In this document: positions 15,696 to 48,511 of the stretch, piece after piece
How positions within the stretch are numbered: the first letter of the stretch is position 1
Layout: each line of letters starts with the position of its first letter
Virus record (IMG/VR): IMGVR_UViG_3300005831_000057
Strand: one strand, 5' to 3'
Origin: a virus
Lineage: Duplodnaviria; Heunggongvirae; Uroviricota; Caudoviricetes
Length of the DNA stretch: 64,000 nucleotides
The notes under the pieces: model-generated
The model's input: only the letters and a program-made list of their open reading frames with translations
The model's database searches: none
What the model was told of the DNA's origin: nothing
Program-made: the position numbers and the translations under genes

Positions 15696-16019
15696 TTATT
15701 CCTCCTCGGTTACAATACTTATTTTGTTAGATATAATGTTGTCCATTATTTCCTTTCCGATTTCTTGTATTGTGAACCTTGTATTAATAATAACATAGAT
15801 ATTGCATAATGTCAATAGTATTTTTGAAATTTTTACAATATCTTCTATAAAAAATATAACATCGGTGTCATTAGCGTTGGAATTAAATGTTGCAATTTTA
15901 GTATCTGACGATATAATATCTTTAGACAAGTCTAATTCGTCTACATAAAATCCGTCTCTTAGGCTTAAAAATATAATATACTCTTTATTGGTTAGATAAA
16001 TACTTTTGGCAAACATCAC
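15696..16019 (-). CDS. Hypothetical protein
   Basis: 107 aa ORF whose start overlaps the stop of the upstream gene. Confidence 0.3.
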   Translation of the reverse strand: MMFAKSIYLTNKEYIIFLSLRDGFYVDELDLSKDIISSDTKIATFNSNANDTDVIFFIEDIVKISKILLTLCNIYVIINTRFTIQEIGKEIMDNIISNKISIVTEEE

Positions 16020-17137
16020 TTAATCCCTTTGATGGTAGTATATAAATCATCGTACGATTCACATCTTATCCCATCCCAATCGCTATTAAATGCATATTTC
16101 TTACCAAAACAAATATCAACATCTGCGTTAGAAGTCTTAAGATTAGAACCAAGATCGTCTATAAAAATACCATTCATCATATTTATAGAAGATTTATCCT
16201 TGTATTTGTTCTCGTCAAGTAAAATTAGATTTGCATATGGAAAAATTCTTCCTAGTAATTCCGACTTACCTTTTAGATTTTTGTCAGTACCAATAGTTAC
16301 AAAATTAATTTCATATCCATCGTCGTACAACTTGTTAATTACCTCTTCTGAATTTTCAAAGAAATGCATATTTTCTTTATTAAAAAACCTGTCATCGTTG
16401 AAATATCCTTTTATGGTTTCCATTTTACAATTTACTTCTTCAAAATCCCAACTCACAACAATATTAGGATCAATATCTGTATCAAAGTCTTTGTTGTACA
16501 TTCCAACTACAGTTTTAAATGTATCGTTTAATGTTCCGTCAAAGTCAAAGAATAGTCTTTTTAGATATCTTTTATCTGTAGACCACTTATCGATTATCTC
16601 GTCTAGCGTAACTGGAGCGTAATCATAAAACATGCATCCAACATTATAAGCATTACACTCATATCCGTTATTATTTAAATCCCTAATCATCTTAAGAGCT
16701 ACATCGTGCTCTGGGGTTTTGTGAAAATGTCCATATAGATGAATTCCACCATGATAATGACCGTCATAAAATGGCATTAAGTAATGTGAAAGCACAACTT
16801 TCTTTGTTTCTCCATTGTTTAACGTAACAGATATTTTGGAATAGTCTGAAATCCCATTGAAAGCTTTTTTGTTAGTTCCATTGCTTAGGAATTTATCATG
16901 ATTTCCAGTTACTATATTAATCTGTCCGTTAAGTTTCTTTAAAAGACTAGGGACATCGTCGTGTCTCCAAATCATATCGCCAAGAACATATACAACTCCA
17001 TCTTTTGGCACTTTTTCATTCCATCGTCTTATAAGCTCGTTTTCCATTTCTTCTGTGTCTCTGAATGGTCTGTCATCGAATCCTATACAGTTATAATGTC
17101 CTATGTGTAAATCTGATGTAAAAAAAACTTTGCTCAT
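16016..17137 (-). CDS. Calcineurin-like metallophosphoesterase fused to a HAD-superfamily (DxDGT) phosphatase/nucleotidase domain
   Basis: MPE motifs DLHIGH, GDM, GNHD, GHFH in the N-terminal half. C-terminal FFDFDGTLNDT (HAD motif I) and IFIDD (motif IV). Confidence 0.65.
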   Translation of the reverse strand: MSKVFFTSDLHIGHYNCIGFDDRPFRDTEEMENELIRRWNEKVPKDGVVYVLGDMIWRHDDVPSLLKKLNGQINIVTGNHDKFLSNGTNKKAFNGISDYSKISVTLNNGETKKVVLSHYLMPFYDGHYHGGIHLYGHFHKTPEHDVALKMIRDLNNNGYECNAYNVGCMFYDYAPVTLDEIIDKWSTDKRYLKRLFFDFDGTLNDTFKTVVGMYNKDFDTDIDPNIVVSWDFEEVNCKMETIKGYFNDDRFFNKENMHFFENSEEVINKLYDDGYEINFVTIGTDKNLKGKSELLGRIFPYANLILLDENKYKDKSSINMMNGIFIDDLGSNLKTSNADVDICFGKKYAFNSDWDGIRCESYDDLYTTIKGIK

Positions 17138-17140
17138 CTA

Positions 17141-18115
17141 CTAATCATCCTCCTCTTCTGGAAATGTTGCTATGTCATCCCAATTGCTTGTATCAAATGG
17201 TATATCGTCACATATGAAATTAGACATCCGTTCGCTAAGCGTTGTCGGTGTTATAGCACGATGAATAGCATCAATAGCACTATCGAGTCCAACGACGTGA
17301 GTCGGACTATTATATGTCGCACCTGCCAACGAATCTACTACATTGCCATTATTAAACATAATTGTACGAACATCATTAGTTGTAATATTAGAATCAACAT
17401 AACCACTGCCATAATTACTGCTGAAATAACTATTAAAACTACTAGGCATATTATATAGTATATACTCTTCAAACTTAGACATATTAGTGTATTCTTTTGG
17501 AGACCTAGGTAATGTAGGTATACAGTTATATATCTTATTACTTAAATTTGAAAGTCTTCCATTCATATATTCTGCACAGTCAACAACGTTATTAATAACA
17601 GTATCTATTAAAATATCTACATGGCATGAATTGATGTTATAAAAATCATAATTATCAGCTGTCATCCTTCTTTCAATTTCTTCTTGAGAATCTCCTCTTG
17701 ACAACAATCTAATTTTGGTCTCTTGGTCGGTACATTTAACTAATACAGACGCAAAATTTATACTAGTATTATTAGATACCGCACGAAGACCGTCTGGGTT
17801 AAGAATCAAAACATTATTCATTCCAGAAAGCATCTTGGTCAAAGGAGTTCCATAAAAGCATTTTCCAAACGAAGCATCATAACTTGTAGTTTCTAAAAAC
17901 ACACCTTTGTGATTCATATTATCAAATTCTTCTTCCGATACAAAATGATAATCAACTCCGTCAACCTCACCTTCTCGCATAGGTCTTGTCGTACAAGTAA
18001 CCACTTTGTTCCATCCAAACTTGACCAACTCATTGACGATGGTCGTCTTACCGCTTCCACTTCTGCCGATTATTACACAGTTAAAGTTATTATTTTCACT
18101 TAAATTTCTAGGCAT
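17141..18115 (-). CDS. Guanylate-kinase-like nucleoside monophosphate kinase with a C-terminal extension
   Basis: P-loop GRSGSGKTT and the guanylate kinase signature TTRPMREGEVDGVDYHFVSEEEF. Confidence 0.7.
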   Translation of the reverse strand: MPRNLSENNNFNCVIIGRSGSGKTTIVNELVKFGWNKVVTCTTRPMREGEVDGVDYHFVSEEEFDNMNHKGVFLETTSYDASFGKCFYGTPLTKMLSGMNNVLILNPDGLRAVSNNTSINFASVLVKCTDQETKIRLLSRGDSQEEIERRMTADNYDFYNINSCHVDILIDTVINNVVDCAEYMNGRLSNLSNKIYNCIPTLPRSPKEYTNMSKFEEYILYNMPSSFNSYFSSNYGSGYVDSNITTNDVRTIMFNNGNVVDSLAGATYNSPTHVVGLDSAIDAIHRAITPTTLSERMSNFICDDIPFDTSNWDDIATFPEEEDD

Positions 18116-18380
18116 TAAAACCCTCCTTTCTATTTTTTATTTTTTCTTATCATACTTATAAATACAAGCAATATTCCAGTTGCAATAATTACTTGCGAAA
18201 ATACAAGTGTAGAGTTAAAAAATCCTGCAAAATCCATACTATCTTCTCCTATTCTTTTTATTTTCCTTAATACACTCTTGAATCGTTTCTATTATTACAA
18301 CTACAGCTCCTAGCGAAACTGCTACAGATAAAGCTACTACTATGCTTAAGAATAATTCTGTAAAAGTAGCTTTGTTTATC

Positions 18381-18409
18381 ATTGTAGCGTAATTAAATAT
18401 ATTTGTCAA
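18381..18409 (-). promoter_or_regulatory. Sigma-A-type promoter (minus strand): TTGACA-N17-TACAAT
   Basis: Reverse complement reads TTGACAaatatatttaattacgcTACAAT, upstream of a small hydrophobic peptide ORF. Confidence 0.45.
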
Positions 18410-18809: not shown

Positions 18810-18843
18810 TTTTTCTATCTCCTTTTTGTTTATTTATAATACT

Positions 18844-18872: not shown

Positions 18873-18881
18873 TACCTAATT

Positions 18882-19250: not shown

Positions 19251-19892
19251 TTAATCCCTTTCGTCTTTATTTTTGTATTCAAATCTTATACTCGAAATTT
19301 CGTTATCGTCCATAATAATAGCACATAATCTACCACCAAATACACATCCGTTATCAATACATATACAATTGTACTTAATATTAACTAAATTGTCTTCTAC
19401 TGTAGTATGCCCATGCATGGTAAGACATTTGCGCTTAGAATCTACATTTCTACTCCATAAAATATCATCTTTTGTATTTTCTTCTATATCTGGTTTTGAT
19501 AGTGACGAGTGACACCAAACAATATCGCCATCTTTGAAATATAAAGGTAGACTTTTAATCGTGTGATACATCGCTTTATAACTCTGTCCGTTTTTATAAA
19601 AACTTCTCTTCGTTTTGTTACCGCCATTTGAAATCCAAGACTTATCCACTTCGTTTACATAATCCAAAAACATCTGTTCGTGATTTCCTAACAGCCATAT
19701 AAATTTGTCACTTTTGGCAATAATTCTAGTATTTATGATAAAATTAAAAAGTTCATAACTATTACGTCCTCTGTCTATTACATCTCCAGTAATTATAAGT
19801 CTATCTTGTTGTGGATCATAATTTATTTTATCTAACAATGTCATAAGTGTATAATAACATCCATGTATATCTCCGACTGTTATAGTTCTCAT
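19251..19892 (-). CDS. PPP-family (lambda-phosphatase-like) metallophosphoesterase
   Basis: GDIHGCYY, GDVIDRG and GNHE motifs. This is the same fold as the phosphoesterase module of bacterial Pnkp. Confidence 0.75.
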   Translation of the reverse strand: MRTITVGDIHGCYYTLMTLLDKINYDPQQDRLIITGDVIDRGRNSYELFNFIINTRIIAKSDKFIWLLGNHEQMFLDYVNEVDKSWISNGGNKTKRSFYKNGQSYKAMYHTIKSLPLYFKDGDIVWCHSSLSKPDIEENTKDDILWSRNVDSKRKCLTMHGHTTVEDNLVNIKYNCICIDNGCVFGGRLCAIIMDDNEISSIRFEYKNKDERD

Positions 19893-19908: not shown

Positions 19909-20835
19909 TTAATGCGAATTTACATCAGCGTCGTGTAATGTCATAAGTTGTCTATATAAATCATAGCCTAACATATCTTGATACTTTTTATACGTTTTTT
20001 TATACTTCCAAGAATAAGGCATCATGTGTAAATTTACCAATGTAGATATATTAATTATTTCGCTATCAGAATATCCATCACGCAATTGCAAAATATCATA
20101 AGCTCCTACATTTTCATGGTTGTAATAGTGAGCATCACTGTCAACTTCTCCTAAATGATTCAAAAATGTCTTAGTAAATGGTTTTCCGATATCATGCAAC
20201 TTCGCAGCAACCACGACTAAATCTGAATCTTTTAGTAAATCACGATTAGCGTACTTATTAATTACTTGCCATGACGTGTTGTACATATGCTTTCCAAGCG
20301 TGTCTTTGTGGTGTGAGTTTTCTTGGTCAAATCTGCATATCTCTTCTGTAAGAAAGTCTTTAATAGTTTTAGGCTTAAACGATATAGGCGTATGTATTTT
20401 AATATCATTCCACCCTTCATACATAGATGGAGTATTCCAATTAGTATACATCTTTTTTATTACATATTCTGGTACAATTCTATCTCTATTATTGTTATTT
20501 TTGATGCATTCTTCATAAGTATTATAGGCGATATGACATTCTTTGAATACCTCTAAATTATTTTTTCTAGCAAAAGAATCTAACTCTAACAAGAAAGCCA
20601 TTCTCTTTTTTCTACAAATATTAGTTGCGTCATATACCACGTCTTTGCCATCTAATAATGTATTAAAAGTTCTTTCTTTCATAATCCTGAACACTTCTGT
20701 AGCATCTTTCTGCACCCTTTCGTCGCCATATAATTCTTCTCTTATACTATCTGACGAATGAACGATTCCAGTAGCAGATTTAGCCAATGTAGACTTTCCA
20801 CTAGCTGGCAATCCTACTAACATAGCAAATTTCAT
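19909..20835 (-). CDS. Polynucleotide-kinase-like P-loop kinase fused to an HD phosphohydrolase domain
   Basis: AAGGAGG RBS before MKFAMLVGLPASGKST (Walker A, T4 Pnkp-like N-terminus). C-terminal H...LHDIGK HD motif. Confidence 0.6.
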   Translation of the reverse strand: MKFAMLVGLPASGKSTLAKSATGIVHSSDSIREELYGDERVQKDATEVFRIMKERTFNTLLDGKDVVYDATNICRKKRMAFLLELDSFARKNNLEVFKECHIAYNTYEECIKNNNNRDRIVPEYVIKKMYTNWNTPSMYEGWNDIKIHTPISFKPKTIKDFLTEEICRFDQENSHHKDTLGKHMYNTSWQVINKYANRDLLKDSDLVVVAAKLHDIGKPFTKTFLNHLGEVDSDAHYYNHENVGAYDILQLRDGYSDSEIINISTLVNLHMMPYSWKYKKTYKKYQDMLGYDLYRQLMTLHDADVNSH

Positions 20836-20837
20836 AA

Positions 20838-21821
20838 TCAATCCTCCTTTAAACATCTTTTTATTTCAATAGCTATCCCTTTTATTACAGGTACGCATAC
20901 AGAGTTTCCTGCTTGTTTATACAATCTAGCATCACTCATATCATCTGGTAAAACATAATATTCAGGAAATCCTTGTGCATTAAAACATTCTCTTGGTGTC
21001 ATTTTTCTAATACCATGCTTAGTCTTTATTAAGCAAACGTTATGTCCGCCTTCCCCTTGATTTGCCGTAAGAGTTGGCACAACTCCTGATCGATTTTTTC
21101 TTACATACTTCCTTCTCCACTGATATATTGCTGGATTTTCTGGTTCATCATTTTTCATCCCATCCACTAAAGCATCGTATATTTCGCCTTTATACTTACC
21201 TAATGTATAATAATACTTTTCGTCAACCTTGTTATTAAAATCGATAATATCTTTTACTGTAGTTGTCAAATGGGTAGCAAGCGGCCAATGAAATTTTTCA
21301 TAATCTTCTTCATCTCTAAATGCCACAATGTAAATTCTTTCTCTGTTCTGTGCTATGTTTCCATAATTCATCGCATTTAATACTTGATAAGTGTATTTAT
21401 ATCCAAGTATATCTAGTTGTTCACAAATCACTCTGAATGTATTTCCGTTATCATGTCCAACAAGATTTTTTACATTTTCAAAAAAAGCAAATCTTGGTTT
21501 CTTATCCTCTAGTATGCGTGTTAATTCAAAAAACAGCTCTCCACGCCCTTTTTCATCTTCAAATCCTTTTCTGTATCCCGCAATAGAAAAAGACTGACAT
21601 GGAAATCCAGCTAGCATAATATCAAAATCAGGTATTTCTTCACTTTTTACATCGCATATATCTCTCATGTCTACTTTTATATCAAAATTAAGTTCAAATG
21701 TCTTTGTTGGGTATAGATCGATTTCATTTGCATAAATAGTTTTAAAAATTTCTGCGCTTTCAAATCCACAGTCGATACCTCCTACGCCAGCAAAAAAAGA
21801 TGCACACCTTAACATAATCAA
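20838..21821 (-). CDS. DNA (cytosine-5)-methyltransferase
   Basis: FAGVGG (motif I), GFPCQ (IV), ENV (VI), GNSV (X). Confidence 0.85.
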   Translation of the reverse strand: MIMLRCASFFAGVGGIDCGFESAEIFKTIYANEIDLYPTKTFELNFDIKVDMRDICDVKSEEIPDFDIMLAGFPCQSFSIAGYRKGFEDEKGRGELFFELTRILEDKKPRFAFFENVKNLVGHDNGNTFRVICEQLDILGYKYTYQVLNAMNYGNIAQNRERIYIVAFRDEEDYEKFHWPLATHLTTTVKDIIDFNNKVDEKYYYTLGKYKGEIYDALVDGMKNDEPENPAIYQWRRKYVRKNRSGVVPTLTANQGEGGHNVCLIKTKHGIRKMTPRECFNAQGFPEYYVLPDDMSDARLYKQAGNSVCVPVIKGIAIEIKRCLKED

Positions 21822-23095
21822 TCCTCCTTTAAATACTTTTTTATTTCAGACATCTTTATGTATTTTGGTGACTTGGTGTTTTCGTTTTGCTTTATATAAT
21901 TAACGCTCTTCCCAAGATGTCTTCTTATTACATATTTTGCAATGCTTTTATCTACATTATTTCTTACATAAATCATAAAATCTTTAGTGTTGTCAGTGCT
22001 GCGAATTGCATCGGTGATACTTCTATCCACATCTTCGTTTATTGTATAAAGATATCTAAACACAATGTCTGATATATATCCAACTCTATGCTTATACGCC
22101 GCTGGTACTTTACTTATAAAATCGTCAAAATTGCCATCTCCTATACATTTAATTATAAGATTTACCGAAGATGACTTGTCTAGTATCTTGTGGATATTAA
22201 CATAATCGTCATACTTTATCTTAACCTTAAATCCATCAATGTCTAGCACGAATCCTTCTGCTTCATTTGATCTTACATCTTTTAATGAATTAAAGACTTT
22301 ATCTAATGTAGTATCAAAGAGTCTAGTAGACTTAACACTATATTGAGTTGCGAAACCTATTACGTCTTCATAAGAAAATTCTATTCCATTATTATTGTCT
22401 CTTATTCCGATTAAATACATTCCTTCGTATTCTTTCTTATAAACAACTACATGTTGATCTTTTAATGATATATATTCAAATATAAACGTAAGACCAATGT
22501 TGCTTTTAATCATCTTCAAATAATTGTTGTCATTTTCAATCATACTGTAAGCGTCTTCAAGTCGCCAAGAAGTCTTCCTATTTATGCTCATACTGCTTGC
22601 CATAACTAAATTATCATTATACCAAGTTGCAGTCATCATAGATCCGTCAAGCTTATCCGAGAATTCTACACTGTTAGCGTTTTCTATCATAGCTGAAATA
22701 TTCTCATAACTAGTTTCGTCGCTCTCGTTGAGATTCCTAAATTTTCTAAATGGACAAAGTACAATTTCGTCAGATATTAAGTTTATAACTACTCCTCTAC
22801 ACTCTTTGTAAAATCCTCCATAAGAATCCCAGAATTTATCATACTTATTTACTTCTTCTGAATTATTGAATACACTTGAATAATTTCCGTATCTTATAAT
22901 CGCCAAATTATGATGATATGAAATTTGCAAATCTCTAAACAAGCAACGATATTCTTCTAAACCAAGTCTCTCTATCCAGTTCTCTATTATGGTATTACCT
23001 TCTAATGCTTTAAAATCAAAAGCATAGCCAAACCTTTTTACATATTCATCTTTTATTTCTACTACTTTATTTAAAACTGCGTTCCAAGACTTCAT
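21818..23095 (-). CDS. RNA ligase (Rnl1-like covalent nucleotidyltransferase)
   Basis: Motif I SDKLDGS (KxDG), motif III FEYIS, motif IV EGFVL, motif V KVKIK. Embedded with the kinase and phosphatase genes. Confidence 0.6.
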   Translation of the reverse strand: MKSWNAVLNKVVEIKDEYVKRFGYAFDFKALEGNTIIENWIERLGLEEYRCLFRDLQISYHHNLAIIRYGNYSSVFNNSEEVNKYDKFWDSYGGFYKECRGVVINLISDEIVLCPFRKFRNLNESDETSYENISAMIENANSVEFSDKLDGSMMTATWYNDNLVMASSMSINRKTSWRLEDAYSMIENDNNYLKMIKSNIGLTFIFEYISLKDQHVVVYKKEYEGMYLIGIRDNNNGIEFSYEDVIGFATQYSVKSTRLFDTTLDKVFNSLKDVRSNEAEGFVLDIDGFKVKIKYDDYVNIHKILDKSSSVNLIIKCIGDGNFDDFISKVPAAYKHRVGYISDIVFRYLYTINEDVDRSITDAIRSTDNTKDFMIYVRNNVDKSIAKYVIRRHLGKSVNYIKQNENTKSPKYIKMSEIKKYLKED

Positions 23096-26304: not shown

Positions 26305-26322
26305 TTACTCTCCTTGTCGATA

Positions 26323-28366: not shown

Positions 28367-28806
28367 AAGTTATCTGTTTTAATCATATATATAACTGCGT
28401 CAACACGATTGTCTTCGAGTTCTTTACGTATAATATCTATAAGGAAATTATATTTATCCTTATCTTCTAAGTAAAACGCAATAGAACATATGTTTCTGCG
28501 TGCCCAATCCTTAATATTACTTATATTTTTGCGAATAAATTCAATATTTCCGTCATAATCATCATGTCCAATATATGTCAAGGCAGAACTTACAAAAACT
28601 CTGTCTGAAAATGTCCAATCATTACGCATTGATAAGAAATTTATACTAGATAGAAATCTTGCATAATCAGACTTGGCTGTCTTGTTAATACTAAAACACT
28701 CTTCTACTATTTTGTTATTCATTCCTTCTCCATCACGTCCGCTTATAAAAAAATCCACACGTCTTTCTTCTTTCTTGTATTCTTCAATATCTAATACTTC
28801 TATCAT
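28363..28806 (-). CDS. Hypothetical soluble protein of the NTase cassette
   Basis: 147 aa. ATGA overlaps with both neighbours. Confidence 0.35.
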   Translation of the reverse strand: MIEVLDIEEYKKEERRVDFFISGRDGEGMNNKIVEECFSINKTAKSDYARFLSSINFLSMRNDWTFSDRVFVSSALTYIGHDDYDGNIEFIRKNISNIKDWARRNICSIAFYLEDKDKYNFLIDIIRKELEDNRVDAVIYMIKTDNL

Positions 28807-43393: not shown

Positions 43394-44347
43394 TTATTTG
43401 TCTTTAATTATTGCACTTACGCCTTGAACAGTAACTTTGCTACCGTTCCATTTTTCTATTTCTTTATATTTAACAAGATTATCATTAATTGATGCTGAAA
43501 TCTTCTTGTTGGCAGTAGCTTCTGCACTAGATTTAATAATTACTGCATCTGCATCGGCTTTTGCTTTTGATAAAATCTGTTTATTCTTGTTTTGCTGCGT
43601 AATAATATTCTGTTCGGATGAAAACTTTTGGTTAATTGACTTCTGAATAGACGCATCTTGATAAGTTAATCCATTTTTCATACCTAAAACTGTAATGGTA
43701 ATTCCACGTCCACTAAAATAATCCACTACATCTTTTCTTACACTGTCCATAATAACACTTTTGTTTGCTAGCACATTATTTAACGTGTATTTTGCACACT
43801 CTTCGACAAATTTAGACTCTACTCTTGCCCTAATTTCAGTATCCATAATATTTGCTAACGTCTTATTATTGTATCTATATAAGAATTTTGTAGCATTAAA
43901 CTCGTCAATTTGAGCAGAACAGTTCATTCCGACACTGAAACCGATTGATTCTTTTGATTCAGCCATAATTACTTGATTTTTTGGGGTAGTTCCAGTCTTG
44001 CTATCGGATGTCCACTCTCTTGTTTCTGGCTTTCTTTCCACGATAACTAATTTTACTGTTGCACGATAATACCCAGAGTCTTCAAATCTTCCAGTTTGAA
44101 CCCATCTTTTAGAAATCGTGATCTCTTTTGATGCGACTTTTGCACTATTTAACGCTTCTTCTGACTTAAAAACTTCTTGATCAACTACATCTCCAGTCAA
44201 TGGAATCAAAAATGCCGTCTGCGAAGCCTCTATTGTTTTAATTTCTGGCTTATTATATGGTCTGCATCCCATAAACGAGCATGATACTAATACAAATAAT
44301 ACAACTAAAATACTTCTTCTAATTCTTACGCTTGGTTTAATTTTCAT
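43394..44347 (-). CDS. SPFH/band-7 (prohibitin-like) domain lipoprotein
   Basis: Lipobox LVSCSF. The central region resembles a band-7 domain and is followed by an Ala/Lys-rich coiled coil. Confidence 0.45.
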   Translation of the reverse strand: MKIKPSVRIRRSILVVLFVLVSCSFMGCRPYNKPEIKTIEASQTAFLIPLTGDVVDQEVFKSEEALNSAKVASKEITISKRWVQTGRFEDSGYYRATVKLVIVERKPETREWTSDSKTGTTPKNQVIMAESKESIGFSVGMNCSAQIDEFNATKFLYRYNNKTLANIMDTEIRARVESKFVEECAKYTLNNVLANKSVIMDSVRKDVVDYFSGRGITITVLGMKNGLTYQDASIQKSINQKFSSEQNIITQQNKNKQILSKAKADADAVIIKSSAEATANKKISASINDNLVKYKEIEKWNGSKVTVQGVSAIIKDK

Positions 44348-44615
44348 CTTTCTCTCCTTTTACTAAATAAATAAGTTTACGAGTTGCATATTTTATATCA
44401 TTTCCAAAAACTATTGCTGCCAAAACTAAATAGCTTGCAAAACTAACATTTTTAATATTATTATATAGCCTAAACGCACCAGATTCGATTTCTCCGCCAT
44501 TCAACTGCTTAAGGCACATACTTGTAGATACTGATGGCTCAAACGCTTCTATAAGGCAAATAGATGTAATAACCACTAATGCATATATTATAATTTTAAT
44601 AACCATATTCTTCAT
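44337..44615 (-). CDS. Small membrane protein
   Basis: 92 aa with two hydrophobic helices. Overlaps the SPFH gene start. Confidence 0.35.
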   Translation of the reverse strand: MKNMVIKIIIYALVVITSICLIEAFEPSVSTSMCLKQLNGGEIESGAFRLYNNIKNVSFASYLVLAAIVFGNDIKYATRKLIYLVKGEKDEN

Positions 44616-44814
44616 ATCTTATCGCCCTTTCTTTCTTATCAATAGTTTCGTCTACATCAGTCAAGGCTGCTCTTGCTTTTATGTAATCTTGATTATCTGT
44701 AGTATCAAATCTTCCTACTTGTGTGTATTTGTCAAGCAAAACTAATATGTCTGATCTTTGCCTTCTCAATTCAACTACTTCTTTCCTAGTTCTTGTAATA
44801 TCTTCTTTCGTCAT
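44596..44814 (-). CDS. Hypothetical protein
   Basis: 72 aa ORF. Confidence 0.3.
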   Translation of the reverse strand: MTKEDITRTRKEVVELRRQRSDILVLLDKYTQVGRFDTTDNQDYIKARAALTDVDETIDKKERAIRYEEYGY

Positions 44815-44967
44815 AATTCCTCCTATTTAATTAATTTGTTGGCATAAAATTAAGACCATCCAAAATATATCAATATATAACTCTTTGGTCTTATTGTGCC
44901 TAAACACAGAGTTTTCATCATATGGGTTTTGTTTGCTGTTAGAATCCTATACAAGATTCGTAATATA

Positions 44968-46473
44968 TTACATAATCTCTTTTAAAATATCTTCTAATGG
45001 CTGATATCTTTCAGAGTTAAGTACGTCTAACAATACTTCATATGGATCCATTTTGTCAGATAACACCATCTTGAAAGTGTTTACTGAAAATCCACTTACT
45101 AAGGCAACTCCAAGTTCATTTTGAATTACTGGAATAGTACTGCTTCTTGAACATACATTCCAAAATACCAACCTTGGCATATTATATCCATGATCTTTGA
45201 AATCTTGTGTTAGCTTGTCAAAGATTCTTACTTCTGCATTTTCTTTGCATTCGTCAAATTCCATATCGGATATAACCAAAATATTACTTGGCAAATCCTC
45301 TTGTTTCATATTGCCATTAATCGCAGTGTCGAGAATAAGCTTAAACACAGCCTCGATGTCGGTGTTACTTACTTCCCATTCATCATTAGCTCTGTGAAGT
45401 TTTGCCAATAATGAATCGCGTCCGCTTAAATCGACAAGCTGAGGTTTACTTGAAAACGTAATAAACTTATCCTTAAACTCTCCACTACACCTTTCTGAAA
45501 AATATATAGAAAGTGAAGTAGCTACATCGTGTGCAGTTACAGTGGTATTTCCTACACTTGTACCCATACTACCCGAACCATCTCTTACGACAATTGTATT
45601 CGAATTTCCATCAACAATATCTTTCTGATTAGCCCACAACATTTCAAGATTACTGTCTAAGTCTGTGCGATACTCACTTTTATACCTAGAAACTATCTCG
45701 TATGGCATAAGAACTCCAGCGTTAACAGTCTCTTCTCCACTTTTAACCTTCTCTATAAACTCTGAACGCCTTGCTTCGTCATGCTTATAGAACGCTGCGT
45801 TGTAAAGAAGATTATTCTTTGATGTAATTGTCTTGTAGTTAATTTCATCCCATCTTCCACTACACATTTTAACTTCTACCACGTCGATATATCTTCTAAG
45901 ACTTGATAATGCTTTTCTATATTCCTTTTCAGTAAGTCCAAGATATCCGCTTACAATTTTTCCAAGTCTCTTAGTATTCTTAGAGCTTGCATTAATAGAT
46001 GGTAGCCACTTACCAAGCAATGAAACTTCTTGATCATTGTCTAAAGCATTAAGATCTTGATCAAGAGTACGTTTGATCATTGATAATACTAATTCTGACA
46101 ACTTTGTGTCTAGTAAGCATAAAATGTCGTCGAATCTTCCATAGAAAGGAATAAACTTAATTAAATCCTTTACCACTTCTTTGTTGTTTTCAGCCAAATA
46201 GCAAATAATAATCTTGAACAAATTTCTTTCTCCTAGTCCTTCTCTTATATCTCTGGCGTAAAATAACCACTTGATTGAATTCTTTGCATCTTCGTCATAA
46301 GCCTTAACAAAAGATTTGATAATTTCTTCACTCGTAGAATTTCTAAATGAAGAAACTTTAAAATTTAAATCCAATAAATATTTTCCAGTAGTCTTATATC
46401 CTAAACCACCATTCTCTGTGATACTAAAATTGTTATCTAAATCTAACTGTTTTTCTAATTTTGTAATAAACAT
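44968..46473 (-). CDS. TROVE-like + vWA protein related to Ro60/Rsr (DUF2828-like)
   Basis: C-terminal vWA MIDAS VVRDGSGSMGT...T...D. The ~290-aa helical N-terminal region is compatible with TROVE. AGAGGA RBS. Confidence 0.55.
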   Translation of the reverse strand: MFITKLEKQLDLDNNFSITENGGLGYKTTGKYLLDLNFKVSSFRNSTSEEIIKSFVKAYDEDAKNSIKWLFYARDIREGLGERNLFKIIICYLAENNKEVVKDLIKFIPFYGRFDDILCLLDTKLSELVLSMIKRTLDQDLNALDNDQEVSLLGKWLPSINASSKNTKRLGKIVSGYLGLTEKEYRKALSSLRRYIDVVEVKMCSGRWDEINYKTITSKNNLLYNAAFYKHDEARRSEFIEKVKSGEETVNAGVLMPYEIVSRYKSEYRTDLDSNLEMLWANQKDIVDGNSNTIVVRDGSGSMGTSVGNTTVTAHDVATSLSIYFSERCSGEFKDKFITFSSKPQLVDLSGRDSLLAKLHRANDEWEVSNTDIEAVFKLILDTAINGNMKQEDLPSNILVISDMEFDECKENAEVRIFDKLTQDFKDHGYNMPRLVFWNVCSRSSTIPVIQNELGVALVSGFSVNTFKMVLSDKMDPYEVLLDVLNSERYQPLEDILKEIM

Positions 46474-46512
46474 AATCTTCCTCTTTTCTTTTCATTTTTT
46501 TATTTAATCACT

Positions 46513-46562
46513 AGATACCATATTCATCGCATATGATTTTTTTAATTTGCTGCGTGTACCTA
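46513..46562. repeat. Direct repeat copy R1 (core TTCATCGCATATGATTTTTTTAATTTGCTGCGTGTACC)
   Basis: Near-identical to R4. Read directly from the sequence. Confidence 0.8.
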
Positions 46563-46586
46563 TGATTATGTTTTATTTTTTACTTA

Positions 46587-46627
46587 CAAGATGCCATATT
46601 TCATCGCATATGATTTTTAATTTGCTG
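46587..46627. repeat. Direct repeat copy R2 (CAAGATGCCATATTTCATCGCATATGATTTTTAATTTGCTG)
   Basis: Shares the core with R1 and R4. Directly flanks the tRNA-like element. Confidence 0.8.
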
Positions 46628-46639
46628 TTAACATCTTAA

Positions 46640-46752
46640 TCGACACAGTAGGGCTCGAACCTACGACATATAGTTTTCTTTTTTATTGCTGTATAAATAT
46701 TTTACAATATTTTAAATTTTGCTATCGCTCTCCCAGCTGAGCTATGTGTCGA
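46640..46752 (-). ncRNA. tRNA-like ncRNA with a ~50-nt expansion replacing the anticodon arm; candidate Y-RNA-like (YrlA-type) RNA
   Basis: On the minus strand: a perfect 7-bp acceptor stem (CGACACA/TGTGTCG), a D-arm GCTCAGCTGGGAGAGC and a T-arm GTAGGTTCGAGCCCTAC. ~50 nt of AT-rich insert with an AAATATT-GTAA-AATATTT hairpin lies between the D- and T-arms. No CCA is encoded. Confidence 0.5.
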
Positions 46753-46782
46753 ATCTACTAGATGCGCTTTAACTTTAAAATA

Positions 46783-46807
46783 GTTTTTTTAATTTGCTGC
46801 TTACATC
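46783..46807. repeat. Partial direct repeat copy R3 (TTTTTTTAATTTGCTGCTTACATC)
   Basis: Matches the 3' half of R1/R2/R4. Flanks the tRNA-like element on the other side. Confidence 0.6.
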
Positions 46808-46817
46808 TATTTTTTTA

Positions 46818-46870
46818 CAAGATACGTTATTTTCATCGCATATGATTTTTTTAATTTGCTGCGTGTACCT
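46818..46870. repeat. Direct repeat copy R4 (CAAGATACG...TTCATCGCATATGATTTTTTTAATTTGCTGCGTGTACCT)
   Basis: 38/38 identity with the R1 core. Located at the predicted 5' end of the transcript from the 46881-46909 promoter. Confidence 0.8.
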
Positions 46871-46880
46871 TACTTTAATC

Positions 46881-46909
46881 ATTATATCATACTTATTTTT
46901 GCTTGTCAA
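46881..46909 (-). promoter_or_regulatory. Perfect-consensus sigma-A promoter (minus strand): TTGACA-N17-TATAAT with an A-tract UP element
   Basis: Reverse complement reads AAAAAAAGTGTTGACAagcaaaaataagtatgaTATAAT. Confidence 0.6.
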
Positions 46910-46960
46910 CACTTTTTTTATTTATTTTTTTATTTAATTTGCATCAACTACTATAAAAAT

Positions 46961-46989
46961 ATTATATCATGTATATTTCAAGATGTCAA
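46961..46989 (-). promoter_or_regulatory. Second perfect-consensus sigma-A promoter in tandem (minus strand)
   Basis: Reverse complement reads AAAAAAAGTATTGACAtcttgaaatatacatgaTATAAT. Confidence 0.6.
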
Positions 46990-46997
46990 TACTTTTT

Positions 46998-47720
46998 TTA
47001 AATTATTACTAAGTTATTTATATAATCTCTATTCTTTGTGAATATTGGTATTTCGTTATCGATCACCCATTCGCCAAGTCCGTTTCTTATGGCGCAAGAT
47101 CCTCTTTTGAAACTAGTCTCGACATTATTCCAATTAATATCCTTCTCCATCAACATATCTTGTACCTCCGACGTATTCTTAAATTGTAAAGACTTGTGAG
47201 AAAATACCGACTGAGCCAATCCATTTATACTATTCCTTGTGGCATCTTGCTGTCGCCAAACTAAGCAGTTAGCAGCGTCTCCTTTTGGTATGTTGAAAAC
47301 TCTTGAGTCAAATGTAGCACTCTTAAGTTTTTCATATTTATCTATATTGCAACCGTCTATTCTACTACATATACTCTTATTAAATTCCAAAGTAGCAATA
47401 GAAGCTGAAACGCTTACCATCTTTTGGATATTATTACTAAACCAAGGCTGAGTTTCAAGTCTAAAATAATCCACTATCAATAGCGTTATTTCGTCAGACT
47501 GTGTATACCCAAGCACGCAACCTTGTATTTTCTTGCACAATTGTAGCATCGTATCTTGCATCGCACCAGATAAAACTGTGTCGTATGGACGATCTATTCC
47601 TTTGGCTAAAGTGTGAAACGCACAGCCGTCAAGTCTTATAATGACTGGAGTTCGTCTCATTAATTCTCCATTACTAACTCTTTCATAAGCCTTCATTCTA
47701 TCTCCTAGCGAATCTACCAT
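46998..47720 (-). CDS. Thg1-like protein (tRNA-His guanylyltransferase family 3'-5' polymerase, TLP)
   Basis: KAYERV, VIIRLDGCAFHTL, GYTQSDEITLL, VWRQQDATRNSINGL and the C-terminal block align with the Thg1/TLP hallmarks (KFEYVR, VVVRLDGRNFHRF, AYGQSDEYSF, SWRQADCHINNL). Confidence 0.85.
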   Translation of the reverse strand: MVDSLGDRMKAYERVSNGELMRRTPVIIRLDGCAFHTLAKGIDRPYDTVLSGAMQDTMLQLCKKIQGCVLGYTQSDEITLLIVDYFRLETQPWFSNNIQKMVSVSASIATLEFNKSICSRIDGCNIDKYEKLKSATFDSRVFNIPKGDAANCLVWRQQDATRNSINGLAQSVFSHKSLQFKNTSEVQDMLMEKDINWNNVETSFKRGSCAIRNGLGEWVIDNEIPIFTKNRDYINNLVII

Positions 47721-47731
47721 AAACTCACCTC

Positions 47732-48511
47732 CTATAATATTATTGCGTCAAGTCCTATATTTACACTGTCGAACGCATTTCTCTTCTCTTCTTTAGTTAT
47801 TCCAATATATTCAAGCGTAATAGAGCTAGAACTGTGCCCTAAAATACTCTGCAATACAGATAACATTTTTCCTTTATCTTCTGACGTATCATATCTAAAT
47901 CTGCAAAAACTACGTCTTAGGCTATGTGTGCCAACATCGTACCTTACACATGCGAAGTCTGATGCATCCTTTATGCTCTTGTAAAAAGCAGGATAATTCA
48001 TATGTCCGCCTCTAGCACCTTCAAATACATAATCTTCATGATTTACATATTTTATATTCTTGCCAACAGACTTAAGATAATTACTTATTGCCATTCTAAA
48101 TCCTTCATTAAAAGACAAAAAAACATGCTTGTCATATCTACTTGTTTTTTCTGGCTTAATCGTTTTGCCATCTTTGAAATTATTATTATCGTCTAGTATA
48201 TCGCCAAACTTAATAGACAATAAGTCATTTATTCTAAGCCCGAGATTTATATTGCATAAGAATATTGCCTTTTGGCATCTATAAGAATCTCTATATCTAT
48301 ACTGCGATTCAGTTATCATTTTGTCATAATATGCTACAAACTTATTTACATCTTCTAGCCTAATATATTCGCCTTTATCTTCACGATTACTTTTGGCGTT
48401 AGACTTCGTTTGTTTTGGAAGTCCATCTTTTCTTAATTTTGCTACTTTACCGCCGTCTATAACTTCTAACGGCTTACTTGTTTCAAAAGAATAAATTCTT
48501 GCAGTATTCAT
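47732..48511 (-). CDS. Tyrosine recombinase / integrase family protein
   Basis: R (GLRINDLL), HSLRRSF (HxxR) and LGHSSSSITLEYIG (catalytic Tyr) motifs. Confidence 0.7.
   Translation of the reverse strand: MNTARIYSFETSKPLEVIDGGKVAKLRKDGLPKQTKSNAKSNREDKGEYIRLEDVNKFVAYYDKMITESQYRYRDSYRCQKAIFLCNINLGLRINDLLSIKFGDILDDNNNFKDGKTIKPEKTSRYDKHVFLSFNEGFRMAISNYLKSVGKNIKYVNHEDYVFEGARGGHMNYPAFYKSIKDASDFACVRYDVGTHSLRRSFCRFRYDTSEDKGKMLSVLQSILGHSSSSITLEYIGITKEEKRNAFDSVNIGLDAIIL

What the first reader, a model, noticed from the sequence alone, without database searches (positions are those of the whole stretch)
16016..48511. Synthesis: an unusually complete, dispersed RNA end-healing/tRNA-mimic toolkit in one phage
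Across ~32 kb the phage encodes a 5'-kinase-HD protein, two distinct phosphoesterases (lambda-type PPP and an MPE-HAD fusion with a T4-Pnkp-like DxDGT motif), an Rnl1-like ligase, a Thg1-like 5'-end repair polymerase, a Ro60-like protein and a highly expressed tRNA-like RNA. Each element is known individually. Having them together in one phage points to a coordinated counter-defense or RNA quality-control strategy that has not been characterised as a unit.
Basis: inference. Interest (0 to 1): 0.8.

Follow-up and report, generated by a model that had tools for sequence, protein, structure and literature searches.

The report
Phage tRNA-repair kit plus Ro-like RNP
This gut-Clostridia-type phage carries an ordinary (already catalogued) set of RNA-repair enzymes, but its Ro60-like protein sits behind a strongly promoted array of small RNAs (four hairpins and a tRNA look-alike) that share a conserved helix-plus-ACAGCAA module found next to this protein family in very different phages and matching no Rfam family.

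Summary
One call is overstated: the MPE-HAD fusion is NT5C-type (nucleotidase), not Pnkp-type. The idea that this combination is uncharacterised is wrong: phage RNA-repair kits with ligase, Pnk, phosphoesterases, RlaP, Thg1 and TROVE/Ro plus a tRNA-like partner are described in comparative-genomics papers. What is more interesting is the RNA locus. Two consensus promoters drive four ~57-nt hairpins flanking a 112-nt tRNA-like RNA, and a sixth element follows the Ro-like stop codon. All share a 7-bp helix followed by single-stranded (A/G)CAGCAA. The module lies on the sense strand within 600 nt upstream of 79 of 83 related viral genes. A covariance model finds it beside DUF2828 genes in 34 of 80 independent bacterial-genome loci (58/58 hits on the gene strand) and in Listeria, Staphylococcus, Campylobacter, Escherichia, Mycobacterium and Fusobacterium phages. 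I read it as the Y-RNA analogue of a divergent Ro family, often fused to tRNAs or anticodon-arm mimics. Function is inferred, not shown.

The parts
21818..23095 (-). Rnl1-type RNA ligase (425 aa), first gene of the healing-and-sealing operon
   Evidence: Pfam RNA_lig_T4_1 E 2e-24; T4 Rnl1 structures 2c5u/5tt6 E 4e-10 with KLDG aligned to the KEDG adenylylation motif; phrog_562 E 8e-43
19909..20856 (-). Pnk-HD: N-terminal P-loop 5'-OH polynucleotide kinase (GLPASGKS) fused to a C-terminal HD phosphohydrolase (KLHDIGK)
   Evidence: AAA_33 E 7e-11 and HD E 3e-6; C. thermocellum Pnkp kinase domain 4gp7 E 1e-5; NCBIfam bacter_Pnkp kinase part and the HD region of a CCA-adding enzyme model; homologues in Bacillus Tsamsa-like phages abut an RnlA ligase
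19251..19892 (-). lambda-type PPP metallophosphoesterase (213 aa), 17 nt downstream of Pnk-HD
   Evidence: Metallophos E 1e-18; ApaH/PrpA and bacter_Pnkp phosphatase segment; phrog_246 NinI-like E 2e-53; motifs GDIHG, GDVIDRG, GNHE read from the sequence
28803..29888 (-).
   Evidence: Pfam RlaP 63.4 bits, cut-off 23, E 3.5e-17; phrog_388 E 9e-54; homologues within 10 kb of DUF2828 genes in 19 loci and in L207
46998..47720 (-). Thg1-like protein (TLP), 3'-5' polymerase; its stop codon abuts the first RNA promoter
   Evidence: Pfam Thg1 E 3e-29; 4kgk B. thuringiensis TLP E 3e-59, with the DG and SDE metal-binding motifs identical in the alignment; phrog_4717 E 1e-85
46881..46989 (-). two tandem consensus sigma-70 promoters (TTGACA-17-TATAAT, each with TG extension)
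   Evidence: 12/12 matches at 46989-46961 and 46909-46881; no terminator-like site between them and the Ro-like gene
46816..46874 (-). hairpin R1: helix H (AAGGUAC/GUAUCUU) plus GCAGCAA
   Evidence: sequence; fold; covariance model R1 41.5 bits E 2e-7 (this copy was in the training set)
46756..46812 (-). hairpin R2: helix H (AGAUGU/GCAUCU) plus GCAGCAA. Its distal stem-loop AACU-AUUUUAA-AGUU resembles a tRNA-Lys(UUU) anticodon arm
   Evidence: model R1 39.5 bits E 7e-7 (this copy was in the training set)
46640..46751 (-). tRNA-like RNA with a 7-bp acceptor stem, D arm, T arm (GUAGG-UUCGAGC-CCUAC) and discriminator A. The anticodon loop is replaced by 48 nt holding helix H as a capped hairpin (AAAUAUU-GUAA-AAUAUUU, 46712-46695), then AU, then ACAGCAA (46692-46686)
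   Evidence: Rfam tRNA 46.4 bits E 6e-8 with a 48-nt insert; ARAGORN calls it only when introns are allowed; the same architecture recurs in 142 unique tRNA-like genes of related loci
46585..46640 (-). hairpin R3: helix H (AAGAUGU/GCAUCUU) plus ACAGCAA
   Evidence: model R1 42.6 bits E 1e-7 (this copy was in the training set)
46509..46565 (-). hairpin R4: helix H (AGGUAC/GUAUCU) plus GCAGCAA, ending about 35 nt before the Ro-like start codon
   Evidence: model R1 34.8 bits E 9e-6 (this copy was in the training set)
44968..46473 (-). Ro60-fold protein (501 aa): helical-repeat ring domain plus vWA domain with MIDAS motif DGSGSM
   Evidence: Pfam DUF2828 E 2e-33 and DUF7788 E 1.5e-45; AF2 model pLDDT 78, pTM 0.71; Foldseek PDB ranks 1-13 all Ro60/TROVE, E 1e-8 to 9e-5, TM 0.40-0.58; D298, S300, S302 invariant in 29 homologues; phrog_850 'RNA-binding protein' E 6.5e-128
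44933..44959 (-). sixth module just after the Ro-like stop codon: capped helix H (GAAUCUU-GUAU-AGGAUUC), then UA, then ACAGCAA
   Evidence: a module in the same position occurs in 11 of 59 distinct related loci
43394..44347 (-). SPFH/Band_7 membrane protein, a conserved downstream neighbour of the Ro-like gene; role unknown
   Evidence: Band_7 E 1.5e-5; Band_7 follows DUF2828 in L002, L207, L209 and lies beside the Ro-like gene in mycobacteriophage AvadaKedavra
16016..17137 (-). metallophosphoesterase-HAD fusion; doubtful member of the kit (NT5C-type nucleotidase, next to a guanylate-kinase-like gene)
   Evidence: NT5C E 3e-13, HAD_2 E 4e-5; N-terminal phrog_547 phosphoesterase E 3e-38, Metallophos_2 E 1e-3; no match to a Pnkp-type phosphatase family and no PDB sequence match

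Best explanation
The phage encodes two linked sets of genes for coping with damage to tRNA and other stable RNAs.

(1) A healing-and-sealing operon (Rnl1 ligase, an overlapping C5 DNA methylase, Pnk-HD, lambda-type phosphatase), helped by RlaP elsewhere. Inferred steps: the kinase phosphorylates 5'-OH ends; the HD and/or PPP domain removes 2',3'-cyclic or 3' phosphates; RlaP restores a lost nucleotide; Rnl1 reseals the break. This is the T4 Pnkp/Rnl1 logic with the domain content of bacterial Pnkp spread over separate proteins.

(2) A Ro-like ribonucleoprotein locus. Two strong promoters transcribe four hairpins and one tRNA-like RNA, probably reading through into the Ro-like gene. Each RNA carries the same module, a 7-bp helix followed by single-stranded (A/G)CAGCAA. 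I propose this module is the binding site of the Ro-like (DUF2828) ring, making these RNAs the Y-RNA analogues of this divergent Ro family. Their variable parts are a tRNA body or an anticodon-arm look-alike. These would tether the ring to tRNA-handling enzymes, or present or decoy anticodon arms. The adjacent Thg1-like enzyme would rebuild damaged tRNA 5' ends.

Shown here: gene identities, RNA structures and their conservation, and linkage of the RNA module to the gene family. Inferred: every biochemical step, protein-RNA binding, and the counter-defence purpose.
For: Enzyme identities:
- Pfam, NCBIfam, PHROGs and PDB sequence matches.
- Rnl1, the methylase and Pnk-HD overlap by 4 and 19 nt, and the PPP gene follows after 17 nt, so they look like one operon.
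- Pnk-HD homologues abut RnlA ligases in Bacillus phages.
- The lambda phosphatase family is the phosphatase module of C. thermocellum Pnkp and has 2',3'-cyclic phosphodiesterase activity (PMC2190708).

Ro fold:
- Foldseek ranks 1-13 are all Ro60/TROVE proteins.
- HHpred gave the same answer for the Listeria phage homologue (PMC12282133).

RNA module:
- 79 of 83 related viral loci have a sense-strand ACAGCAA within 600 nt upstream of the gene. Sense versus antisense copies in the upstream 2.6 kb are 442 to 6. Density is 2.06 per kb there against 0.17 per kb elsewhere.
- A perfect 7-bp partner for the helix occurs in 117 of 250 contexts, against 29±5 in shuffles and 37±5 with swapped partners.
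- The capped-hairpin form occurs in 80 of 257 contexts against 9±3 in shuffles. It is followed by a T loop in 64 of 67 cases.
- The distal helix, which was not used to select sequences, is 70% paired with double changes in all 5 pairs, against 35-52% for slid controls.
- Covariance model R1 gives 58 hits in 80 independent bacterial-genome loci, all on the gene strand and nearly all upstream of the gene.
- It also hits beside DUF2828 genes in Staphylococcus SEP9, Campylobacter Los1, Felixounavirus, mycobacteriophage AvadaKedavra and Fusobacterium FNU2 (and Listeria LMSP-25, two of whose modules were in the training set).

Precedent:
- Thermus phage phiLo Ro60 binds two Y-like RNAs encoded just upstream of its gene (PMC12135203).
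- Bacterial YrlA Y RNAs mimic tRNA (PMC4201824).
- The rsr-yrlBA-rtcBA RNA-repair operon responds to damaged tRNA (PMC7790460).
- In Listeria phage CKA15 the most transcribed non-coding regions lie within 2 kb upstream of the homologous gene (PMC12282133).
Against: - There are no expression, binding or activity data for this phage.
- Sequence profiles do not link DUF2828 to TROVE (E 1.9). The Ro relation rests on a predicted fold with TM 0.40-0.58.
- The module lacks the GNCGAA-type motif of known bacterial Y RNAs.
- The module was also found in about 12 viral stretches with no DUF2828 gene in the DNA held, so linkage is strong but not shown to be obligatory.
- Co-location of repair genes with the Ro-like gene in close relatives is no more frequent than co-location with PolIII-alpha: 8 clusters each for Pnk-HD and PolIII-alpha, 3 for RlaP, 2 for Thg1, 1 for Rnl1. 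Part of it is therefore inherited gene order.
- The window's own hairpins R1, R3 and R4 do not carry a canonical anticodon-type loop.
- T4 Rnl1 also has a tail-fibre attachment role, and NinI-type phosphatases can act on proteins.
Confidence: 0.6

Rival explanations
1. The genes are unrelated accessories that merely share the early/replication region of a large phage. On this view Rnl1 acts in tail-fibre attachment or DNA/RNA metabolism, the NinI-type phosphatase acts on host proteins, Pnk-HD and MPE-NT5C act in nucleotide or DNA-end metabolism, Thg1-like services tRNAs on its own, and there is no coordinated pathway.
For: The parts are spread over 32 kb among replication and nucleotide-metabolism genes such as NrdD, PolIII-alpha, primase and helicase. 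PolIII-alpha is as frequent a neighbour of DUF2828 as Pnk-HD. The PHROG for Rnl1 carries the T4 'tail fiber attachment catalyst' label. MPE-HAD is NT5C-type and sits beside a guanylate-kinase-like gene.
Against: Rnl1, Pnk-HD and PPP are translationally coupled or nearly so, and the Pnk-HD/RnlA pair recurs in Bacillus phages. Thg1-like lies next to the Ro-like locus here (upstream) and in two other lineages (downstream), so the order differs while the linkage persists. Kinase, RlaP and Band_7 flank DUF2828 in 170-kb gut phages. RtcB lies 1.3 kb from DUF2828 in Listeria phages.
Confidence: 0.2
2. The helix-ACAGCAA elements are not trans-acting partner RNAs. They would be cis signals of the operon: processing sites that cut a long tRNA/Ro-like precursor, or a leader through which the Ro-like protein or another factor controls its own mRNA.
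For: The last module usually ends less than 100 nt before the start codon of the DUF2828 gene. No terminator separates the array from the gene. Modules sit between tRNAs and tRNA-like genes in arrays.
Against: Copies also lie downstream of the gene: SEP9, Felixounavirus, AvadaKedavra, and the window's sixth module. The module is built into the anticodon arm of more than 100 distinct tRNA-like genes. 40 of 77 hairpins carry an anticodon-arm-like stem-loop, against 10±3 in shuffles. There are up to nine copies per locus. Autoregulation and a trans role are not mutually exclusive.
Confidence: 0.15
3. The tRNA-like RNA and its relatives are real tRNA precursors. The 30-70-nt insertion would be a new kind of intron that is cut out, with the ends rejoined by the phage Pnk-HD/Rnl1 (or RtcB) enzymes, as in yeast tRNA splicing.
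For: The insertions lie in or beside the anticodon arm. 25 of 108 embedded elements retain a complete anticodon stem-loop after ACAGCAA. The phage encodes all the healing and sealing activities a Trl1-type splicing pathway needs.
Against: No endonuclease candidate was identified. In the window's RNA, and in examples such as L018, no choice of excision restores a 7-nt loop with U33 (my own inspection). The stand-alone hairpins, which have the same module and no tRNA body, are not explained. ARAGORN's intron positions are scattered (31-41) rather than at 37/38.
Confidence: 0.05

Closest known systems
Phage RNA-repair repertoires catalogued by comparative genomics (Burroughs & Aravind 2016, as summarised in Iyer et al. 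2021, PMC7824862)
   Same: The same parts list: ATP-grasp RNA ligases (Rnl1/Rnl2), polynucleotide kinase, calcineurin-like and HD phosphoesterases, RlaP, Thg1, and a ROT/TROVE protein with a tRNA-like partner. All are interpreted as a counter to host tRNA-cleaving defences.
   Different: Those surveys cover mostly jumbo phages and canonical TROVE proteins. This is a roughly 113-kb phage or prophage of Clostridia type. Its Ro-like protein is of the DUF2828 family, and its RNA partner candidates have a different conserved module. I could not read the 2016 paper, so I do not know whether DUF2828 is treated there.
T4 Pnkp + Rnl1 repair of PrrC-cleaved tRNA-Lys, and bacterial Pnkp (C. thermocellum; PMC2190708, PMC1920235)
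   Same: The same logic: 5'-OH kinase, 2',3'-cyclic/3'-phosphate removal and Rnl1-type sealing. The kinase domain matches the CthPnkp kinase, and the PPP protein matches the CthPnkp/lambda phosphatase module.
   Different: The phosphatase is not the T4 HAD type. The kinase is fused to an HD domain. This is the reverse order of Runella HD-Pnk, which I recall from the literature and which is cited in PMC6097658. The PPP enzyme is a separate protein. No activity has been tested.
Ro60/Rsr with Y RNAs: Salmonella rsr-yrlBA-rtcBA, M. smegmatis YrlA (PMC4201824, PMC7790460) and Thermus phage phiLo Ro60 with Yrl1/Yrl2 (PMC12135203)
   Same: A ring-plus-vWA protein encoded next to, and on the same strand as, small structured RNAs. 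At least one RNA mimics tRNA. The locus is associated with RNA-repair genes.
   Different: There is no significant sequence similarity to TROVE. The module is helix + ACAGCAA instead of the GNCGAA/CGAA motif. There are up to nine RNAs per locus. In the tRNA-like form the termini are at the acceptor stem and the candidate Ro-binding helix is an internal capped arm, which is the reverse topology of YrlA. Both topologies coexist in one locus.
Listeria phage CKA15 (P100-like) CKA15_055 and upstream abundant non-coding transcripts (PMC12282133)
   Same: A homologous protein (the DUF2828 family in Pecentumvirus) lies downstream of the tRNA region. The authors proposed, from HHpred and RNA-seq, that nearby highly transcribed non-coding regions could be Y RNAs.
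   Different: No RNA motif or structure was defined there. The array of three ACAGCAA modules maps to cka15 25,197-25,647. That is not the region the paper names (26,236-26,727). Whether it is one of the other two regions is unknown.
Bacterial Thg1-like proteins (B. thuringiensis TLP, PDB 4kgk)
   Same: E 3e-59 over the full length, with the metal-binding motifs conserved. TLPs repair 5'-truncated tRNAs by templated 3'-5' addition (established biochemistry, from my own knowledge).
   Different: This one is phage-encoded and placed beside a Ro-like RNA locus. Its substrate here is unknown.

Membership tests
Ro60/TROVE proteins | Ring of helical (HEAT-like) repeats followed by a vWA domain | tested here: met
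   AF2 model (pLDDT 78, pTM 0.71). Foldseek PDB ranks 1-13 are all Ro60/TROVE over 500-570 aligned columns, E 1e-8 to 9e-5, TM 0.40-0.58.
Ro60/TROVE proteins | MIDAS motif (DxSxS) in the vWA domain | tested here: met
   DGSGSM at residues 298-303. D298, S300 and S302 are invariant in 29 homologues.
Ro60/TROVE proteins | Significant sequence match to the TROVE family | tested here: not met
   Pfam gives DUF2828, DUF7788 and VWA_2 only at E<=0.01. phmmer against PDB finds nothing. The profile of 29 homologues against PDB gives TROVE chains only at E 1.9.
Ro60/TROVE proteins | Binds Y RNA and misfolded RNA ends | not testable with these tools
   Needs RIP/CLIP or EMSA.
Bacterial Y RNA (YrlA/YrlB type) | Encoded within a few kb of the Ro gene, on the same strand | tested here: met
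   Window: five elements 35-400 nt upstream and one directly downstream. 79 of 83 viral loci. 58 of 58 model hits on the gene strand in genome loci.
Bacterial Y RNA (YrlA/YrlB type) | Conserved GNCGAA(N)G motif in the Ro-binding stem | tested here: not met
   The conserved element is (A/G)CAGCAA, 1-3 nt 3' of a 7-bp helix. No Rfam family other than tRNA matches the locus at E<=1.
Bacterial Y RNA (YrlA/YrlB type) | tRNA-like domain (D and T arms) | tested here: inconclusive
   One of the six window elements has it (Rfam tRNA 46.4 bits), but with open acceptor termini, the reverse of YrlA. The four hairpins have no D or T arm.
tRNA (decoding) | Cloverleaf with a 7-nt anticodon loop | tested here: not met
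   The acceptor, D and T arms fit, but the loop is replaced by 48 nt. ARAGORN in default mode finds none.
T4-type healing and sealing (Pnkp + Rnl1) | P-loop 5'-OH polynucleotide kinase | tested here: met
   GLPASGKS motif; AAA_33 E 7e-11; CthPnkp kinase 4gp7 E 1e-5; phrog_505. This is domain-level evidence only.
T4-type healing and sealing (Pnkp + Rnl1) | HAD-type 3'-phosphatase of T4 Pnkp | tested here: not met
   The only HAD domain (16016-17137) is NT5C-type, E 3e-13, with no Pnkp-phosphatase family hit. The candidates for end healing are instead the HD and PPP domains.
T4-type healing and sealing (Pnkp + Rnl1) | Rnl1 ligase with the KxDG adenylylation motif | tested here: met
   RNA_lig_T4_1 E 2e-24; KLDG aligned to the T4 KEDG.
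T4-type healing and sealing (Pnkp + Rnl1) | Repairs anticodon-nuclease-cleaved tRNA during infection | not testable with these tools
   Needs biochemistry and infection assays.
Thg1-like proteins (TLP) | Thg1 palm domain with conserved metal-binding carboxylates | tested here: met
   Pfam Thg1 101.9 bits, cut-off 29.2. 4kgk E 3e-59, with LDG and SDE motifs identical in the alignment.
RlaP nucleotidyltransferases | Match to the RlaP family above the curated cut-off, in a genome with an RNA ligase | tested here: met
   63.4 bits against a cut-off of 23. The Rnl1 gene is 5.7 kb away in the same orientation.

The most novel reading that the evidence does not exclude
The helix-ACAGCAA RNAs are a large class of phage non-coding RNA that has no Rfam family and that I did not find defined in the papers I could search. 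They would be the Y-RNA equivalents of the DUF2828 branch of Ro proteins, a family with more than 7,900 database homologues and 711 cultured-phage records. They load tRNA bodies or bare anticodon arms (often Lys-UUU-like) onto a Ro-like ring. The resulting particle would work as a decoy, sensor or repair platform against host anticodon nucleases, acting together with Thg1-like, Pnk-HD, RlaP and RNA ligases. Some members would be working tRNAs that carry an extra Ro-binding arm.
Probability: 0.3. Interest if true: 0.85.

Novelty: new variant of a known kind. Interest (0 to 1): 0.6.

Why it matters
The gene kit itself only adds a further example to a known list. The RNA side could matter more. 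A protein family present in Felix O1-like, P100/A511-like, Campylobacter, Staphylococcus, mycobacterial and many gut phages is mostly annotated 'hypothetical' or 'RNA-binding protein'. It now has a concrete, searchable candidate RNA partner with a defined module.

That makes an open question testable: what do Ro-type rings do in bacteria and phages, and why are their RNAs tRNA-like? Well-studied, culturable phages such as P100 and Felix O1 relatives could be used. It also bears on phage-therapy strains and on how phages escape tRNA-targeting immunity.

Tried and rejected
- Megablast of 24 kb of the window against cultured phages found no match, so there is no close isolate.
- An exact-sequence look-up of the window's Ro-like protein found nothing on record.
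- A single-protein scan of viral contigs gave one locus. The alignment-based scan was needed.
- I first read a Tyr(GUA) anticodon arm inside the window's tRNA-like insert (note). Comparison with related genes showed that stem is helix H with a GUAA cap, so I withdrew that reading.
- I considered the intron model for the insert and rejected it as the main explanation. No excision restores a canonical loop, and ARAGORN's intron positions are inconsistent.
- Rfam gave no family for the hairpins at E<=1, nor in four cultured-phage loci at gathering threshold.
- Sequence and profile searches against PDB did not connect DUF2828 to TROVE. Only the fold search did.
- A 14-base pattern scan of IMG/VR returned mostly chance hits. 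92 of 125 matches had no helix partner and no DUF2828 gene. 31 were structured, and 16 of those lay beside a DUF2828 gene. This is useful but not a clean specificity test.
- I tried to equate the module array with the most transcribed region of Listeria phage CKA15. The coordinates differ by about 600 nt.
- Burroughs & Aravind 2016 is not in the held library, so I cite it through PMC7824862.
- tblastn with single window proteins undercounts neighbours. Band_7, for example, is seen by Pfam in L002, L207 and L209 but is rarely seen by tblastn.

Full report
**What the window is.** All genes from 13.7 kb to 64 kb are on the minus strand. The window is phage DNA. It holds a tape-measure protein, minor tail protein, endolysin, DnaB-type helicase, primase, PolIII-alpha, NrdD and a tyrosine integrase. 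GC is an even 30-33% throughout. No cultured phage is close at the DNA level. The Ro-like protein's relatives lie mostly in Lachnospiraceae, Oscillospiraceae and other Clostridia genomes and MAGs, and in 60-190-kb gut viral contigs. The host is therefore probably a gut Clostridium-class bacterium, and the element may be temperate.

**Checking the listed genes.** Each call was tested with Pfam, NCBIfam, PHROGs and PDB sequence searches.
- 21818-23095 is an Rnl1-type ligase: RNA_lig_T4_1 E 2e-24, T4 Rnl1 structures E 4e-10, KxDG motif aligned.
- 19909-20856 is a P-loop kinase of the Pnkp type fused to an HD domain: AAA_33 and HD, C. thermocellum Pnkp kinase 4gp7 E 1e-5, NCBIfam bacter_Pnkp, and the HD region of CCA-adding enzymes.
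- 19251-19892 is a lambda/NinI-type PPP phosphatase with the three signature motifs. It also matches the phosphatase segment of bacterial Pnkp.
- 46998-47720 is a bacterial-type Thg1-like protein: 4kgk E 3e-59, catalytic motifs identical.
- 16016-17137 is a phosphoesterase-HAD fusion, but the HAD half belongs to the NT5C deoxynucleotidase family (E 3e-13). DxDGT is common to all HAD phosphatases. With a guanylate-kinase-like gene next door (17141-18115), it fits nucleotide metabolism better than RNA end healing.

**Operon structure.** Rnl1, a C5 DNA methylase and Pnk-HD overlap by 4 and 19 nt. The PPP gene follows after 17 nt. Together they carry the domain content of bacterial Pnkp (kinase, lambda-type phosphatase, ligase) as separate proteins. 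The lambda phosphatase family is known to have 2',3'-cyclic phosphodiesterase activity (PMC2190708).

**The Ro60-like call.** The 501-aa protein hits Pfam DUF2828 and DUF7788, not TROVE. Sequence or profile searches against PDB do not reach Ro60. An AlphaFold model built on 29 homologues (pLDDT 78, pTM 0.71) has Ro60/TROVE structures as its 13 best PDB matches over the whole length. These include Thermus phage phiLo Ro60, Xenopus and human Ro60 and Deinococcus Rsr, with E 1e-8 to 9e-5 and TM 0.40-0.58. Plain vWA domains follow. The MIDAS motif DGSGSM is invariant.

The family is very large: more than 7,900 hits, 404 in IMG/VR, and 711 cultured-phage records. The records include Felixounavirus, Listeria Pecentumvirus, Campylobacter, Staphylococcus, Vibrio and mycobacteriophages. 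In some of these it is annotated 'Ro-like RNA binding protein'.

**The RNA locus.** Rfam finds one tRNA-like RNA at 46640-46751, at 46.4 bits, with 48 nt in place of the anticodon loop. The 524-nt gap between the Thg1-like and Ro-like genes holds much more than that:
- two tandem 12/12 sigma-70 promoters with TG extensions, and no terminator-like site;
- four hairpins of about 57 nt, two on each side of the tRNA-like RNA.

Each hairpin is closed by a 7-bp helix whose sequence differs between copies while pairing is kept. The helix is followed after 1-3 nt by single-stranded (A/G)CAGCAA. The same heptamer sits in the tRNA-like insert, preceded by a 7-bp helix closed by a GUAA loop. A sixth copy of the capped form lies just after the Ro-like stop codon.

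**Conservation of the module.**
- In 83 related viral loci, 79 have a sense-strand ACAGCAA within 600 nt upstream of the gene. In the upstream 2.6 kb there are 442 sense copies and 6 antisense copies. Density is 12 times that of the rest of the loci.
- Among 250 unique contexts, 117 have a perfect 7-bp partner downstream. Shuffled sequence gives 29±5, and swapping partners between copies gives 37±5.
- 80 of 257 contexts have the capped-hairpin form, against 9±3 in shuffles. 64 of 67 of these are followed by a T loop, so they sit inside tRNA-like genes. Only 16 of 107 of the open form are. The same helix therefore occurs in two circularly permuted topologies.
- ARAGORN with introns allowed finds 142 distinct tRNA-like genes of 105-167 nt in these regions, 108 of them with ACAGCAA.
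- On a 46-sequence alignment, the distal helix of the hairpins was not used for selection. It is 70% paired with double changes at all five pairs, against 35-52% for slid controls.
- 40 of 77 hairpins carry a 5-bp/7-nt-loop stem-loop with U33 and R37, like an anticodon arm, against 10±3 in shuffles. Loops such as CUUUUAA, CUUGAAA and CUGUUAA recur.
- 25 of 108 embedded elements keep such an arm after ACAGCAA, against 8±2.5 in shuffles. Some may therefore be complete tRNAs with an extra arm.

**Independent test with a covariance model.** A model built from the hairpins finds only R1-R4 in the 64-kb window. It also finds elements that were not in the training set, always on the gene strand and right beside DUF2828 genes:
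- Staphylococcus phage SEP9: three in tandem, E 5e-9 to 9e-6;
- Campylobacter phage Los1: two;
- a Felixounavirus: two;
- mycobacteriophage AvadaKedavra: one;
- Fusobacterium phage FNU2: one.

Listeria phage LMSP-25 is also hit, but two of its modules were in the training alignment. In 80 loci fetched independently from bacterial genomes, the model gives 58 hits at E<=0.01 in 34 loci. All are on the gene strand and nearly all lie within 2 kb upstream. No Rfam family matches these elements. A 14-base pattern scan of viral contigs gave 31 structured matches, 16 of them beside a DUF2828 gene. About 12 stretches had the module but no such gene in the DNA held. Linkage is therefore strong but not proven obligatory.

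**Co-occurrence of the kit.** Within 10 kb of DUF2828 in the 83 viral loci, tblastn finds Thg1-like in 19, RlaP in 19, Pnk-HD in 15 and Rnl1 in 1. Collapsed to 24 protein clusters, this becomes Pnk-HD 8, RlaP 3, Thg1 2, Rnl1 1, and any of them 11. PolIII-alpha also scores 8, so shared gene order explains part of it.

Better evidence comes from rearranged and distant cases:
- Thg1-like lies upstream of the locus here and downstream in two other lineages.
- 170-kb gut phages have kinase, RNA gap, DUF2828, Band_7 and RlaP in a row.
- Listeria phages place DUF2828 between the tRNA array and an RtcB ligase.
- Bacillus phages pair Pnk-HD with RnlA.
- LeBron has Ro-like, Pnk and RNA ligase genes (PMC13148394).

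**What is already known.** Iyer et al. 2021 (PMC7824862), citing Burroughs & Aravind 2016, describe phage RNA-repair systems made of exactly these components. [quoted passage not shown] The kit is therefore not uncharacterised as a concept, although no such combined set has been tested experimentally as far as I could find.

Other precedents:
- Phage Ro60 with upstream Y-like RNAs has been shown biochemically for Thermus phage phiLo (PMC12135203).
- tRNA-like bacterial Y RNAs are known (PMC4201824).
- For a P100-like Listeria phage, the authors noted that the homologous protein resembles Rsr, is found in virions, and lies within 2 kb downstream of the most transcribed non-coding regions. They suggested these could be Y RNAs (PMC12282133).
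- The ACAGCAA array maps inside that 2-kb interval, but not onto the one region whose coordinates the paper gives.

**Interpretation.** The best-supported reading has two parts:
- a tRNA/RNA repair kit of known type;
- a Ro-like ribonucleoprotein locus whose RNAs are a new variant of the Y-RNA idea. They share a common helix-ACAGCAA handle, probably the protein's binding site, attached to tRNA bodies or anticodon-arm mimics.

Whether the particle decoys anticodon nucleases, recruits tRNA enzymes or checks RNA quality cannot be decided from sequence. The rivals are independent accessory genes, cis-acting processing or leader elements, and intron-bearing tRNAs. They are listed with their evidence in the rival-explanations section. 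The first two remain possible in part.

Noticed in passing
window 43394-44615 (-); L002 11588-12478; L207 14662-15708; L209 11586-12476; L210 1998-2894: An SPFH/Band_7 membrane protein (here preceded by a 92-aa hydrophobic protein) accompanies the Ro-like gene in this phage, in 110-170-kb gut phages and in mycobacteriophage AvadaKedavra. A membrane scaffold conserved next to an RNA-binding ring is unexplained.
   Followed up: partly
window 20838-21821 (-): A C5 cytosine DNA methyltransferase (E 2e-83) is wedged between Rnl1 and Pnk-HD and overlaps both reading frames, so it is probably co-translated with RNA-repair genes. A second C5 methylase (40039-41238) and an N6/N4 methylase (29881-30636, overlapping RlaP) are also present.
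   Followed up: no
L084 3410-4000 (Listeria phage LMSP-25; equals cka15 about 26,236-26,727): A roughly 550-nt unannotated stretch behind a TTGACA-17-TATAGT promoter corresponds to the most highly transcribed region of Listeria phage CKA15 (7-34% of all transcripts, per PMC12282133). It has no Rfam match and no ACAGCAA module, so it may be a separate large phage non-coding RNA.
   Followed up: partly
L002 8324-9358: In a 170-kb gut phage the position held by Thg1-like in the window, directly upstream of the RNA array, is taken by a 344-aa reverse transcriptase (RVT_1). The same locus carries DUF3800-XI and abiF motif RNAs at 14790-14861.
   Followed up: no
related loci, e.g. L020 about 7888 (2113 nt upstream of the gene): One tRNA-like element with the module carries an anticodon-type loop CUCUAAA (CUA, which would read the UAG stop codon). 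ARAGORN calls others 'Stop' or 'Pyl'. This could hint at suppressor tRNAs in some of these phages.
   Followed up: no
window 1-64000: No ordinary tRNA gene is found in the 64-kb window (ARAGORN 0; Rfam finds only the tRNA-like RNA), whereas relatives have arrays of normal tRNAs next to the Ro-like gene.
   Followed up: partly
window 49789-51234 and 51244-52722 (-): Two adjacent paralogous proteins of 481 and 492 aa of unknown function (phrog_18912) carry C-terminal CxxC pairs. The second ends in a run of nine aspartates.
   Followed up: no
window 44620-44814 (-): A 65-aa ORF with a good ribosome-binding site, between the sixth RNA module and the membrane proteins, weakly resembles the N-terminal coiled coil of GreA/GreB (E 1e-3).
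   Followed up: no
PMC12282133 (Listeria phage CKA15): The DUF2828 homologue CKA15_055 was detected in purified virions with 57% sequence coverage. This suggests the Ro-like protein may be packaged and delivered with the genome.
   Followed up: no
L084 974-1072: A 'drum' RNA (Rfam RF02958, 50 bits) lies inside the tRNA array of Listeria phage LMSP-25.
   Followed up: no
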